DNA of 64,000 nt from the NCBI RefSeq assembly GCF_002854065.1, contig NZ_CP024147.1; one strand, 5' to 3'. Below the pieces are notes generated by a model, which ran no database searches, was not told where the DNA came from, and was given only the letters and a program-made list of their open reading frames with translations. Source of the stretch: Escherichia coli (GTDB lineage Bacteria; Pseudomonadota; Gammaproteobacteria; Enterobacterales; Enterobacteriaceae). Below are positions 43,312 to 46,081 of this stretch, one piece after another; within the stretch, counting starts at the first letter, position 1, and every line of letters starts with the position of its first letter. The position numbers and the translations under genes are program-made.

Positions 43312-43635
43312 CTACAGGCGGTGGCGATAATCGCTGGGAGTGCGATCAAACTGCCGACGGAAAACGCGGGAGAAGGTCTGCTGCGAGACATAACCCAGGT
43401 CCATTGCGATATCAAAAATCGGACGCTCGGTGGTGCGCAACTCAACGGCGGCCAGTAACAGGCGGCGTTGACGAATGTAATCGCCAAGCGTCTGATGCGT
43501 CACCGTGCGGAACATCCGTTGCAGGTACCACTTTGAATAGCCTGATTTTTTTGCGACGACATCAATGTTAAGCGGCTGGTCAATATGCTCGTCAATCCAT
43601 GCGATAAGATCCTGAATAATTTTCTGATGGGACAT
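43312..43635 (-). CDS. soxS: superoxide response AraC-family activator
   Basis: 107-aa ORF MSHQKIIQDLIAWIDEHIDQPLNIDVVAKKSGYSKWYLQRMF... matches SoxS. Confidence 0.97.
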   Translation of the reverse strand: MSHQKIIQDLIAWIDEHIDQPLNIDVVAKKSGYSKWYLQRMFRTVTHQTLGDYIRQRRLLLAAVELRTTERPIFDIAMDLGYVSQQTFSRVFRRQFDRTPSDYRHRL

Positions 43636-43691
43636 AAATCTGCCTCTTTTCAGTGTTCAGTTCGTTAATTCATCTGTTGGGGAGTATAATT

Positions 43692-43709
43692 CCTCAAGTT
43701 AACTTGAGG
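43692..43709. promoter_or_regulatory. SoxR operator within soxS promoter
   Basis: Perfect palindrome cctcaagttaacttgagg between divergent soxS and soxR. Confidence 0.9.
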
Positions 43710-43720
43710 TAAAGCGATTT

Positions 43721-44185
43721 ATGGAAAAGAAATTACCCCGCATTAAAGCGCTGCTAACCCCCGGCGAAGTGGCGAAACGCAGCGGTGTGGCGGTATCGGC
43801 GCTGCATTTCTATGAAAGCAAAGGGTTGATTACCAGTATCCGTAACAGCGGCAATCAGCGGCGTTATAAACGTGATGTGTTGCGATATGTCGCAATTATC
43901 AAAATTGCTCAGCGTATTGGCATTCCTCTCGCGACCATTGGTGAAGCGTTTGGCGTGTTGCCCGAAGGGCATACGTTAAGTGCCAAAGAGTGGAAACAGC
44001 TTTCGTCCCAATGGCGAGAAGAGTTGGATCGGCGCATTCATACCTTAGTGGCGCTGCGTGACGAACTGGACGGATGTATTGGTTGTGGCTGCCTTTCGCG
44101 CAGTGATTGCCCGTTGCGTAACCCGGGCGACCGCTTAGGAGAAGAAGGTACCGGCGCACGCTTGCTGGAAGATGAACAAAACTAA
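43721..44185 (+). CDS. soxR: redox-sensing MerR-family regulator SoxR
   Basis: 154-aa [39 protein letters not shown]... with [12 protein letters not shown] [2Fe-2S] motif. Confidence 0.97.
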
Positions 44186-44320
44186 AGCGCCACAAGGGCG
44201 CTTTAGTTTGTTTTCCGGTCTTTGTCTTTCTCTCTATCCCGCTGGTACACAGGAGGGTTTCCCCCGACGTCAACACACCTCATTCGAGCACGTGGTGGAG
44301 GTTCCGGTTGGTGTTGATGC
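44180..44320 (-). ncRNA. ryjA: possible small RNA RyjA (position inferred)
   Basis: In K-12 ryjA lies antisense immediately downstream of soxR (from memory); bidirectional hairpin aaagcgccacaagggcgcttt with T-runs on both strands at 44185..44205 would serve as its terminator; boundaries not verifiable by eye. Confidence 0.3.
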
Positions 44321-44460
44321 TTTAATTGTATGTCACCGACGTTTCTTCGCCAGTGTAAAAGTATACTTTTTAGCCGCAATATTTTTGTCATCTCAGACGA
44401 TTTTTTATCGCAATCCTGAACGGTATACGGCTCGATAACGCTGCAATCTTGCGCATCGAC

Positions 44461-44476
44461 GATAACGTTTGCGCAT
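44461..44476. promoter_or_regulatory. putative PurR operator (distal)
   Basis: gataacgtttgcgcat contains AACGTTTGCG core of the PurR box palindrome (gcAAACGTTTgc). Confidence 0.4.
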
Positions 44477-44602
44477 CAATTGCCTGGTTTTTCATCGTCA
44501 AGACAATAAAAGAGAAAAAAGCAGCAAACTTCGGTTGAAAAAGCCGCTATGATCGCCGGATAATCGTTTGCTTTTTTTTACCACCCGTTTTGTATGCGCG
44601 GA

Positions 44603-44618
44603 GCTAAACGTTTGCTTT
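44603..44618. promoter_or_regulatory. putative PurR operator (proximal) upstream of ghxP
   Basis: gctaaacgtttgcttt contains AAACGTTTGC core. Confidence 0.45.
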
Positions 44619-44731
44619 TTTGCGACGCAGCAAATTGTCGCAAACCTGGAGCGGGAAGATAACGTTTCGCTGGCAGGGGATTGTCCGCCACGCATCTTGA
44701 CGAAAATTAAACTCTCAGGGGATGTTCTCTT

Positions 44732-46081
44732 ATGTCTACGCCATCAGCGCGTACCGGCGGTTCACTCGACGCCTGGTTTAAAATTTCACAACGTGGAAGC
44801 ACTGTCCGTCAGGAAGTGGTTGCCGGGTTAACAACGTTTCTGGCGATGGTCTACTCGGTTATCGTCGTTCCAGGCATGTTGGGTAAAGCGGGCTTCCCGC
44901 CTGCGGCAGTTTTCGTTGCGACCTGTCTGGTTGCCGGACTCGGTTCTATCGTGATGGGTCTGTGGGCTAATCTGCCGTTGGCGATTGGTTGCGCCATCTC
45001 CCTGACGGCGTTTACCGCATTCAGCCTGGTGCTGGGGCAACATATTAGCGTACCTGTCGCGCTGGGTGCCGTGTTCCTGATGGGTGTGCTGTTTACGGTA
45101 ATTTCTGCCACGGGTATCCGTAGCTGGATTTTGCGCAACTTGCCGCACGGTGTGGCGCACGGCACGGGGATCGGTATCGGTCTGTTCCTGCTGCTCATTG
45201 CCGCTAACGGTGTCGGTCTGGTGATTAAAAACCCGCTTGATGGTCTGCCCGTTGCGCTGGGTGATTTCGCGACCTTCCCGGTGATTATGTCACTGGTAGG
45301 TCTGGCGGTGATCATCGGCCTGGAAAAACTGAAAGTCCCTGGTGGCATTCTGCTGACCATTATCGGTATCTCAATTGTCGGTTTGATCTTCGATCCTAAC
45401 GTCCATTTCTCCGGCGTTTTCGCCATGCCTTCATTGAGCGATGAAAACGGCAATTCACTGATTGGCAGCCTGGACATTATGGGCGCGCTGAATCCTGTAG
45501 TCCTGCCAAGCGTTCTGGCGCTGGTGATGACGGCAGTATTTGATGCCACCGGAACTATCCGTGCCGTCGCCGGCCAGGCGAACCTGCTGGATAAAGATGG
45601 GCAGATCATCGACGGCGGGAAAGCACTGACCACTGACTCCATGAGCAGCGTTTTCTCTGGCCTGGTGGGTGCAGCTCCGGCAGCGGTATACATCGAGTCT
45701 GCGGCGGGTACGGCGGCGGGCGGTAAAACCGGGTTGACGGCTATCACCGTTGGCGTGCTGTTCCTGCTGATTCTGTTCCTCTCTCCGCTTTCTTACCTCG
45801 TTCCGGGGTATGCAACGGCTCCGGCGCTGATGTACGTTGGCCTGCTAATGCTGAGCAACGTGGCGAAAATCGACTTTGCTGATTTTGTTGATGCGATGGC
45901 GGGTCTGGTTACGGCGGTATTCATCGTGCTGACCTGTAACATCGTAACAGGCATCATGATCGGCTTCGCGACCCTGGTGATTGGTCGTCTGGTTTCCGGC
46001 GAATGGCGCAAGTTGAACATCGGTACGGTCGTTATCGCCGTGGCGCTGGTGACCTTCTATGCGGGTGGCTGGGCTATCTAA
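44732..46081 (+). CDS. ghxP: guanine/hypoxanthine permease (NCS2/AzgA family)
   Basis: 449-aa [51 protein letters not shown]... Confidence 0.93.

What the first reader, a model, noticed from the sequence alone, without database searches (positions are those of the whole stretch)
44456..44625. Two PurR-box-like palindromes upstream of the guanine/hypoxanthine permease gene ghxP
Both gataACGTTTGCgcat (44461..44476) and gctAAACGTTTGCttt (44603..44618) contain the AAACGTTTGC core of the PurR operator. The right half-site is perfect in each and the left half-site is partial. A purine transporter under PurR control makes biological sense, but I cannot confirm by eye that either site is functional.
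Basis: partly seen in the sequence, partly recalled or inferred. Interest (0 to 1): 0.3.

Follow-up and report, generated by a model that had tools for sequence, protein, structure and literature searches.

The report
Known PurR operators flanking ghxP promoter
The two sequences are genuine, strongly conserved binding sites for the purine repressor PurR in front of the E. coli guanine/hypoxanthine importer gene ghxP; both sites and the regulation are already published, so the finding is correct but ordinary.

Summary
The window is E. coli soxS-soxR-sraL-ghxP-yjcE. Both boxes are real. In the proper 16-bp register they are 44459-44474 (ACGATAACGTTTGCGC) and 44602-44617 (AGCTAAACGTTTGCTT).

With a PurR matrix built from 27 other published sites, they score 18.3 and 18.8 bits. 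These are the two best hits in the 64-kb window; the next best scores 12.4. Each has p of about 3e-7, and both score mid-range among accepted operators.

Both are conserved in GhxP-ortholog loci from about 80 species of Enterobacteriaceae.

Both are prior art. Box 1 is the motif listed for the adenine-dependent PurR ChIP-chip region "ryjA/yjcD" (Cho 2011) and for the PurR-1 iModulon (Sastry 2019). Box 2 is the RegPrecise-derived site at -130.

What this analysis adds:
- A published SMRT-Cappable-seq start maps to 44569, behind an invariant TTGAAA-N18-GATAAT promoter.
- The two strong boxes therefore lie at -110..-95 and +34..+49. Neither overlaps the core promoter.
- A third, weaker box (44558-44573) overlaps -10/+1. 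Its CGTTTGC is conserved in 79 of 81 sequences, and it sits exactly 99 bp from box 1 wherever both are found.
- A covarying RNA hairpin (44619-44644) abuts box 2.

Verdict: interpretation supported, already known, low interest.

The parts
44459..44474 (.).
   Evidence: Scores 18.3 bits, second best in the window. Identical to the motif listed for the ryjA/yjcD ChIP-chip region in Cho 2011 and within 1 bp of the Sastry 2019 motif position. Present at 14 bits or more, exactly 99 bp upstream of box O3, in 78 of 81 sequences. Conservation is 1.73 bits per column against 0.6-0.8 in the flanks.
44535..44564 (+). ghxP sigma-70 promoter: -35 TTGAAA (44535-44540), 18-bp spacer, -10 GATAAT (44559-44564)
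   Evidence: The only promoter-like site in 44150-44800, matching 10 of 12 consensus positions. TTGAAA-N18-GATAAT is present in 81 of 81 orthologous upstream regions. Both hexamers reach 2.0 bits per column while the spacer reaches 0.82.
44569..44569 (+). ghxP transcription start (within 1 nt); the 5' UTR is about 163 nt
   Evidence: SMRT-Cappable-seq full-length reads for b4064 start at NC_000913.3 4278317 and end at 4279876, with 86 start reads in the M9 sheet and 52 in a second sheet. Mapped to the window by alignment with K-12. The start lies 5 nt downstream of the -10 hexamer.
44558..44573 (.). Weaker third PurR-like box O3, GGATAATCGTTTGCTT, at -11..+5, overlapping the -10 hexamer and the start site
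   Evidence: Scores 11.1 bits, seventh in the window. Many other genera carry AGATAATCGTTTGCCT at 14.1 bits. CGTTTGC directly after the -10 is kept in 79 of 81 sequences at 1.91 bits per column. Mangrovibacter keeps the -35 and -10 but lost TTTGC, so the promoter itself does not require it. I found it in none of the papers read. PurR binding is inferred, not shown.
44602..44617 (.).
   Evidence: Scores 18.8 bits, the best in the window. Listed as the yjcD site at -130 (U00096.2 4276372-4276387) in the RegPrecise-derived regulon of PMC4576408. Present at 13 bits or more in 81 of 81 sequences. Its distance from the promoter varies from 42 to 205 bp.
44619..44644 (+). Covarying hairpin in the ghxP leader (UUUGCGAC, 10-nt loop, GUCGCAAA), at +51..+76, 2 nt downstream of O2
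   Evidence: On 74 distinct sequences, 91.3% of cells are paired. Six of 8 pairs show compensatory changes. There are 64 double-change cells against 13.3 (sd 10.2) in shuffles, with 0 of 500 shuffles as high. Pairing drops to 34-62% when the partner is slid. It is not a terminator: the U-run lies 5' of the stem and the A-run 3'. Function unknown.
44449..44455 (.). Conserved heptamer TTGCGCA, 4 bp upstream of O1; it repeats the right end of O1 (44469-44475) 20 bp away
   Evidence: Conservation is 1.68 bits per column against 0.62 in the flank. Two copies are retained in Pluralibacter gergoviae although the PurR box between them is lost. It resembles an orphan PurR right half-site. Unexplained.
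44656..44671 (.). Very weak fourth PurR-like sequence, AAGATAACGTTTCGCT, at +88..+103
   Evidence: Scores about 8 bits, 25th in the window and below all 27 training sites. Predicted as a 'novel' yjcD site at -76 in PMC4576408 Table 5. Only moderately conserved. Probably not a PurR operator.
44732..46081 (+). ghxP (yjcD) coding sequence, 449 aa, the regulated gene
   Evidence: ORF found. Annotated as guanine/hypoxanthine transporter GhxP in E. coli RefSeq genomes.

Best explanation
Both boxes are genuine operators of the purine repressor PurR, a LacI-family dimer activated by hypoxanthine or guanine, and they control ghxP. GhxP imports exactly these two bases, so the circuit is a negative feedback loop: imported hypoxanthine or guanine loads PurR, and PurR shuts down the importer together with de novo purine synthesis.

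Shown here or in the literature:
- The sequence matches and their statistics.
- Adenine-dependent PurR occupancy of the region in vivo.
- Co-regulation of ghxP with the pur genes.
- The transcription start and promoter.
- Conservation of the sites across Enterobacteriaceae.

Inferred mechanism:
- O2 (+34..+49) acts as a roadblock to elongating RNA polymerase, as described for purB and purR. Its distance from the promoter is free to vary between genera, which fits a roadblock.
- The weak box O3 (-11..+5) would occlude the -10 hexamer and the start site.
- O1 (-110..-95) is held at a rigid 99 bp from O3. It probably acts as an auxiliary site that raises local PurR occupancy or interferes with upstream promoter DNA.
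- Which box contributes how much is unknown.
For: - Matrix scores of 18.8 and 18.3 bits are the top two in 64 kb, with p about 3e-7 each, and fall mid-range among accepted operators.
- The PurR ChIP-chip region covers window positions of about 44084-44714, with log2 2.08 with adenine and no value listed without it; the listed motif is O1.
- ghxP is in the PurR-1 iModulon with the motif upstream, and is stated to be repressed by PurR. PurR-dependent adenine repression and 4-fold repression by a purine analogue are reported.
- O2 is the site listed at -130 in the RegPrecise-derived regulon.
- The start at K-12 4278317 maps to window 44569, behind the only promoter-like site. That promoter is invariant in 81 of 81 orthologous regions.
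- O1, O3 and O2 are conserved across about 80 species. The O1-O3 distance is always 99 bp, and the O3-O2 distance varies from 42 to 205 bp.
- Conservation footprints coincide with the boxes.
- Cho 2011 states that PurR sites usually lie between -35 and -10, and that those in purB and purR block elongation.
Against: - No site-resolved binding data were found. ChIP-chip cannot separate O1, O3 and O2.
- Cho 2011 does not name yjcD among the newly found members of its 23 repressed genes, so the effect may have been below threshold in those arrays; the full list (Table S4) could not be read.
- Neither strong box overlaps the core promoter, which is atypical for strongly repressed pur genes.
- An operator at -103 has no obvious repression mechanism. 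PurR is not known to tetramerise or loop DNA (my own knowledge of the family).
- The 99 bp O1-O3 and 44 bp O3-O2 distances correspond to about 9.4 and 4.2 helical turns, so the boxes are not all on one face of the helix.
- O3 scores below 25 of the 27 accepted sites, and its left half is constrained by being the -10 hexamer.
- Conservation of O2 could partly reflect a role of the leader RNA.
Confidence: 0.85

Rival explanations
1. Only O1, the site listed in the ChIP-chip and iModulon papers, binds PurR in vivo. O2 and O3 look like PurR boxes but are conserved for other reasons: O3 because it is the -10/start region, and O2 because it is part of a functional leader RNA next to the covarying hairpin.
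For: Cho 2011 and Sastry 2019 list only O1. O3 overlaps the invariant -10. O2 sits 2 nt from a covarying hairpin, and about 14 nt upstream of O2 are also conserved.
Against: O2 scores as high as O1. In the 74-sequence alignment, 10 of O2's 16 positions are invariant and 5 more are at least 90% conserved. Its variation is confined mainly to position 3 (C, T or G), with occasional changes at positions 1, 7, 10, 15 and 16, which vary among accepted sites too. An independent comparative-genomics regulon lists O2. The O2 sequence takes no part in the covarying stem, and the leader as a whole folds no better than shuffles (z +0.39). Mangrovibacter shows the promoter does not need the CGTTTGC of O3, yet 79 of 81 sequences keep it. 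The papers appear to report one motif per region.
Confidence: 0.1
2. The boxes are recognised mainly by another LacI-family repressor with a similar CpG-centred palindrome, such as RbsR or CytR, and PurR is secondary.
For: LacI-family operators resemble each other. The weak fourth site ends in ACGTTTCGCTG, which resembles the ribose-operon operator half-site as I recall it (memory only; sequence).
Against: PurR itself was immunoprecipitated on this region, and only with adenine. ghxP co-varies with the pur genes in the PurR-1 iModulon. O1 and O2 carry the PurR-type GTTTGC half-site, not GTTTCGC.
Confidence: 0.03
3. The matches are chance occurrences with no regulatory role.
For: The bare 9-mer core occurs 3 times in the window against about 1 expected, which is not significant alone.
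Against: The full-matrix p is about 3e-7 each, for two sites 143 bp apart. They are conserved in about 80 species while flanking columns drift. In vivo PurR occupancy is published.
Confidence: 0.01

Closest known systems
PurR operators of the E. coli pur regulon (purF, purL, purMN, purHD, purC, purT and others)
   Same: A 16-bp imperfect palindrome, ACGNAAACGTTTGCNT, with a central CpG. Occupancy depends on hypoxanthine or guanine. The target gene is in purine metabolism. Scores are comparable to purC, yieG and purM.
   Different: In those genes the single operator typically lies between -35 and -10. Here the two strong boxes lie at -103 and +41 (centres), and only a weak third box overlaps the core promoter.
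Downstream 'roadblock' PurR operators of purB and purR
   Same: The operator lies downstream of the start site and blocks elongation (Cho 2011 text). O2 at +34..+49 is in the same class. purR also has two operators (my own knowledge).
   Different: O2 is in an untranslated leader rather than in coding sequence, and it is combined with upstream and promoter-overlapping boxes. The roadblock role of O2 is inferred, not tested.
Other PurR-controlled nucleobase permease genes: xanP (yicE), adeP/purP (yieG), codB, tsx
   Same: These are transporter genes bound by PurR in the same ChIP-chip study. yieG also carries two predicted boxes, at -147 and -115.
   Different: GhxP imports the PurR corepressors themselves, so this loop is a direct feedback. 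Cho 2011 named xanP and yieG, but not yjcD, among the significantly repressed genes.

Membership tests
PurR operator (E. coli PurR regulon site) | 16-bp imperfect palindrome with central CpG matching ACGCAAACGTTTGCGT, scoring within the range of accepted sites | tested here: met
   O1 matches 13 of 16 positions and scores 18.3 bits. O2 matches 12 of 16 and scores 18.8 bits. Leave-one-out scores of the 27 accepted sites range from 8.7 to 24.3 bits, and the two boxes beat 13 and 15 of them. O3 at 11.1 bits beats only 2 of 27.
PurR operator (E. coli PurR regulon site) | Lies in the regulatory region of a purine or pyrimidine metabolism or transport gene | tested here: met
   The boxes lie in the soxR-ghxP intergenic region. 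ghxP is annotated as the guanine/hypoxanthine transporter. The mapped start and promoter lie between O1 and O2.
PurR operator (E. coli PurR regulon site) | Corepressor-dependent PurR occupancy in vivo or in vitro | tested here: inconclusive
   At region level the feature is met in the literature: ChIP-chip log2 2.08 with adenine and no value listed without it. The 630-bp region covers O1, O3 and O2, so occupancy of each box is unresolved. No footprint or ChIP-exo data were found.
PurR operator (E. coli PurR regulon site) | PurR- and purine-dependent repression of the downstream gene | not testable with these tools
   Literature only. ghxP is a member of the PurR-1 iModulon. It is stated to be repressed by PurR. 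PurR-dependent adenine repression is cited, and 4-fold repression by a purine analogue is reported. yjcD is not named among the newly found members of the 23 genes significantly repressed in Cho 2011; the full list was not readable.
PurR operator (E. coli PurR regulon site) | Site conserved upstream of orthologous genes in related genomes | tested here: met
   Among 80 GhxP-ortholog loci of at least 90% amino-acid identity from many genera, plus the window: O2 is present in 81 of 81, O1 in 78 of 81 at a fixed distance, and the O3 core in 79 of 81.
PurR operator (E. coli PurR regulon site) | Position compatible with repression (overlapping the core promoter, or downstream as a roadblock) | tested here: inconclusive
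   O2 at +34..+49 is of the roadblock type, and O3 at -11..+5 is of the occlusion type. O1 at -110..-95 has no standard mechanism.

The most novel reading that the evidence does not exclude
ghxP is not controlled by a simple single operator. It is controlled by a conserved three-box PurR array: a distal box locked at exactly 99 bp from a weak box on the -10/start site, and a leader box whose distance is free. A covarying leader hairpin abuts the leader box. If the rigid O1-O3 geometry reflects cooperative or architecture-dependent repression, this would be a mode of PurR action not described for this non-looping dimer. If the hairpin adds RNA-level control, ghxP would have a second regulatory layer.
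Probability: 0.15. Interest if true: 0.4.

Novelty: already known. Interest (0 to 1): 0.15.

Why it matters
GhxP imports hypoxanthine and guanine, the two molecules that switch PurR on. Its repression by PurR closes a direct feedback loop between purine salvage uptake and de novo synthesis. GhxP is also the entry route for toxic and mutagenic purine analogues.

The regulatory link itself is already in the literature and in regulon databases. The only added value here is the site-level map relative to a measured transcription start: two strong boxes flank the promoter, a conserved weak box lies on it, and a covarying leader hairpin follows. That map gives a concrete set of mutations to test.

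Tried and rejected
Searches for independent start-site data:
- The Cappable-seq supplement is truncated before 4.27 Mb.
- Kim 2012 has no yjcD entry.
- Thomason 2015 and Marbach 2012 are not held.
- The Shigella M90T tables have no ghxP or yjcD entry.
- The Adams 3'-end paper mentions none of ghxP, yjcD or PurR.
- The Cho 2011 supplement is not held, so I could not read the yjcD expression values.

Ideas tested and dropped:
- Riboswitch or known RNA in the leader: Rfam finds only sraL (44178-44318, minus strand) in 43500-45000.
- Globally structured leader: the 176-nt leader folds no better than shuffles (z +0.39).
- Attenuator or terminator at the T-run after O2: no plus-strand terminator-like site. 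The covarying hairpin has its U-run on the 5' side, so it is not a terminator on either strand.
- O1 as operator of a second or divergent promoter: no other promoter-like site on either strand in 44150-44800. By eye, hexamers around O1 are poor and not conserved. O1 lies about 140 bp upstream of the sraL 5' end.
- DNA looping between boxes: the spacings of 99 and 44 bp are not both in helical phase, and PurR lacks a tetramerisation domain (my own knowledge).
- Core-motif counting as a significance test: not significant alone, so it was replaced by the matrix and conservation tests.

I did not extend the comparison beyond Enterobacteriaceae, because the verdict would not change.

Full report
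**Locus.** The region is E. coli. A 1.2-kb query around the finding matches 5,420 of 5,426 complete E. coli genomes, annotated soxS, soxR and ghxP. In the window:
- soxR is 43721-44185 (+).
- The sRNA sraL/ryjA is 44178-44318 (-) (Rfam, 153 bits).
- ghxP is 44732-46081 (+), 449 aa.

The window is not K-12 itself. It shows 25 differences over 2.6 kb, including T8 instead of T7 in a T-run that begins at 44572.

**Observation.** Both motifs are present. PurR operators are 16-bp palindromes centred on a CpG. In that register:
- Site 1 is 44459-44474, ACGATAACGTTTGCGC.
- Site 2 is 44602-44617, AGCTAAACGTTTGCTT.

Site 1 carries TAACGTTTGC rather than AAACGTTTGC.

Counting the bare core is not significant (3 matches against 1.06 expected). 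The strict consensus with up to 3 mismatches finds only site 1 and one unrelated match.

A matrix built from the 27 other PurR sites in Table 1 of Cho 2011 gives a clear result:
- Site 2 scores 18.8 bits and site 1 scores 18.3 bits. They are the two best of all positions on both strands of the 64-kb window, and the next best is 12.45.
- The exact p-values are 2.5e-7 and 3.7e-7, so 0.03-0.05 such hits are expected per window.
- Against leave-one-out scores of the training sites, they are mid-range. They are close to purC and yieG, and above purM, xanP, carAB, gcvT and guaB.

**Prior art.**
- Site 1 is, base for base, the motif Cho 2011 lists for the PurR ChIP-chip region "ryjA/yjcD". That region has log2 enrichment 2.08 with adenine and no value without it. 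It spans U00096.2 4,275,855-4,276,485, which is about window 44084-44714.
- Sastry 2019 puts ghxP in the PurR-1 iModulon and reports the motif at 4278206, which maps to site 1 within 1 bp.
- Rodionova 2021 states that ghxP and xanP are repressed by PurR.
- Kozmin 2013 cites PurR-dependent repression by adenine and reports 4-fold repression by a purine analogue.
- Site 2 is listed as the yjcD site at -130 in the RegPrecise-derived PurR regulon reproduced in PMC4576408. That paper also proposes a further site at -76, which is window 44656-44671.

One caveat: Cho 2011 does not name yjcD among the newly found members of its 23 significantly repressed genes, and the full list was not readable.

**Promoter and start site.**
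- The only sigma-70-like promoter in 44150-44800 is TTGAAA (44535) - 18 bp - GATAAT (ending at 44564).
- SMRT-Cappable-seq (Yan 2018) records full-length b4064 transcripts from NC_000913.3 4278317 to 4279876, with 86 start reads in M9 and 52 in a second sheet.
- Aligned to the window, this start is 44569 (within 1 nt), 5 nt after the -10 hexamer.

Relative to this start:
- Site 1 (O1) is at -110..-95.
- Site 2 (O2) is at +34..+49.
- The weak fourth sequence is at +88..+103.
- The 5' UTR is about 163 nt.

Neither strong box overlaps the core promoter.

**A third box.** The matrix's seventh-best hit in the window is 44558-44573, GGATAATCGTTTGCTT, at 11.1 bits. It spans -11..+5. Its left half is the -10 hexamer and its right half is a perfect CGTTTGC. 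It shares the 13-nt string CGTTTGCTTTTTT with site 2.

**Comparative evidence.** I retrieved 80 GhxP-ortholog loci of at least 90% amino-acid identity from Escherichia, Salmonella, Citrobacter, Enterobacter, Klebsiella, Raoultella, Kosakonia, Buttiauxella, Kluyvera, Trabulsiella, Mangrovibacter and others.
- TTGAAA-N18-GATAAT is present in 81 of 81 sequences (window included).
- CGTTTGC directly after the -10 is present in 79 of 81.
- O1 at 14 bits or more, exactly 99 bp upstream of O3, is present in 78 of 81.
- O2 at 13 bits or more is present in 81 of 81.

| Segment | Conservation (bits per column) |
|---|---|
| O1 | 1.73 |
| -35 hexamer | 2.00 |
| -10 hexamer | 2.00 |
| CGTTTGC | 1.91 |
| Flanks and spacers | 0.6-0.8 |

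The O1-O3 distance never varies. The O3-O2 distance ranges from 42 to 205 bp because of insertions in the early leader. O2 mostly stays 114-135 bp from the ATG.

Two exceptions are informative:
- Mangrovibacter keeps the -35 and -10 but has lost the TTTGC of O3. The promoter therefore does not need it, and its retention elsewhere points to another constraint, most simply PurR.
- Pluralibacter gergoviae has lost the O1 box.

**Mechanism.** Shown: PurR occupies this region in vivo when adenine is supplied, ghxP is co-regulated with the pur genes, the start and promoter are mapped, and the boxes are under selection.

Inferred:
- O2 blocks elongation. This is the mode Cho 2011 describes for purB and purR, and it fits O2's tolerance of variable distance from the promoter.
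- O3 occludes the -10 hexamer and the start site.
- O1 is an auxiliary site whose fixed geometry relative to the promoter matters for an unknown reason.
- Looping is unlikely. The spacings of 99 and 44 bp are about 9.4 and 4.2 helical turns, and PurR is a dimer without a tetramerisation domain (my own knowledge).
- Because GhxP imports the PurR corepressors hypoxanthine and guanine, the circuit is a direct negative feedback.

**Side observations.**
- Immediately after O2, a hairpin (44619-44644, UUUGCGAC / GUCGCAAA) covaries across genera. It has 91.3% paired cells, and 6 of 8 pairs show compensatory changes. There are 64 double-change cells against 13.3 (sd 10.2) in shuffles, with 0 of 500 shuffles as high. 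Pairing falls to 34-62% when the partners are slid.
- The hairpin is not a terminator on either strand. The leader as a whole is not unusually stable (z +0.39), and Rfam has no match there.
- A conserved TTGCGCA (44449-44455) lies 4 bp upstream of O1 and repeats O1's right end 20 bp away. It persists in the species that lost the box.

**Verdict.** The regulatory link and both sites are already known. The residual novelty is limited to the site-level architecture and the leader hairpin, none of which has been tested experimentally.

Noticed in passing
window 44619-44644: A hairpin in the ghxP 5' UTR (UUUGCGAC, 10-nt loop, GUCGCAAA) directly after PurR box O2. It shows clear compensatory covariation across Enterobacteriaceae (91% paired, 6 of 8 pairs with double changes). 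The loop is C-rich (CCCC) in most genera but CAGC in E. coli. It is not a terminator and has no Rfam match.
   Followed up: partly
window 44449-44455 and 44469-44475: The heptamer TTGCGCA occurs twice, 20 bp apart: once 4 bp upstream of O1 and once as O1's right end. The upstream copy is conserved (1.68 bits per column) and is retained in Pluralibacter gergoviae (L080), where the PurR box itself is lost. It may be an orphan half-site or a site for another factor.
   Followed up: partly
window 44459-44573 versus loci L001-L080: The distance between box O1 and the promoter/O3 is exactly 99 bp in every genome that has both, although about 40 bp of the intervening sequence is poorly conserved. Neighbouring segments show indels of 1 to 160 bp.
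   Followed up: partly
window 44570-44579: The initially transcribed sequence is G-C-T8 (T7 in K-12 MG1655). A T-run just after the start is kept in most genera, though not in Klebsiella. Such runs support reiterative transcription in pyrimidine genes (my own knowledge); no evidence for that here.
   Followed up: no
window 44656-44671: The weak fourth box, AAGATAACGTTTCGCT, ends in ACGTTTCGCTG. As I recall it, this resembles the RbsR (ribose repressor) operator half-site more than the PurR half-site. It was published as a predicted PurR site at -76 (PMC4576408).
   Followed up: no
window 44670-44695: A second conserved palindromic stretch in the leader, CTGGCAGGGGATTGTCCGCCACGC. Other genera carry GTGGATTGTCCAC or GTGGACGGTCCAC. 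It lies about 45 nt upstream of the start codon and could be a hairpin or a protein-binding site.
   Followed up: no
loci L053, L076, L080 and others, between the start site and O2: Klebsiella, Raoultella, Kluyvera, Pluralibacter and others carry insertions of 45-160 bp in the early leader, several containing GC-rich hairpins (for example CCGGCGTTTACGCATAAACGCCGG in L080). These lengthen the 5' UTR but leave O2 intact.
   Followed up: no
window 44178-44318 (minus strand): The sRNA sraL/ryjA (Rfam RF01408, 153 bits) overlaps the 3' end of soxR. Its terminator hairpin is at 44179-44209. Cho 2011 labels the PurR region 'ryjA/yjcD', but O1 lies about 140 bp upstream of the sraL 5' end.
   Followed up: partly
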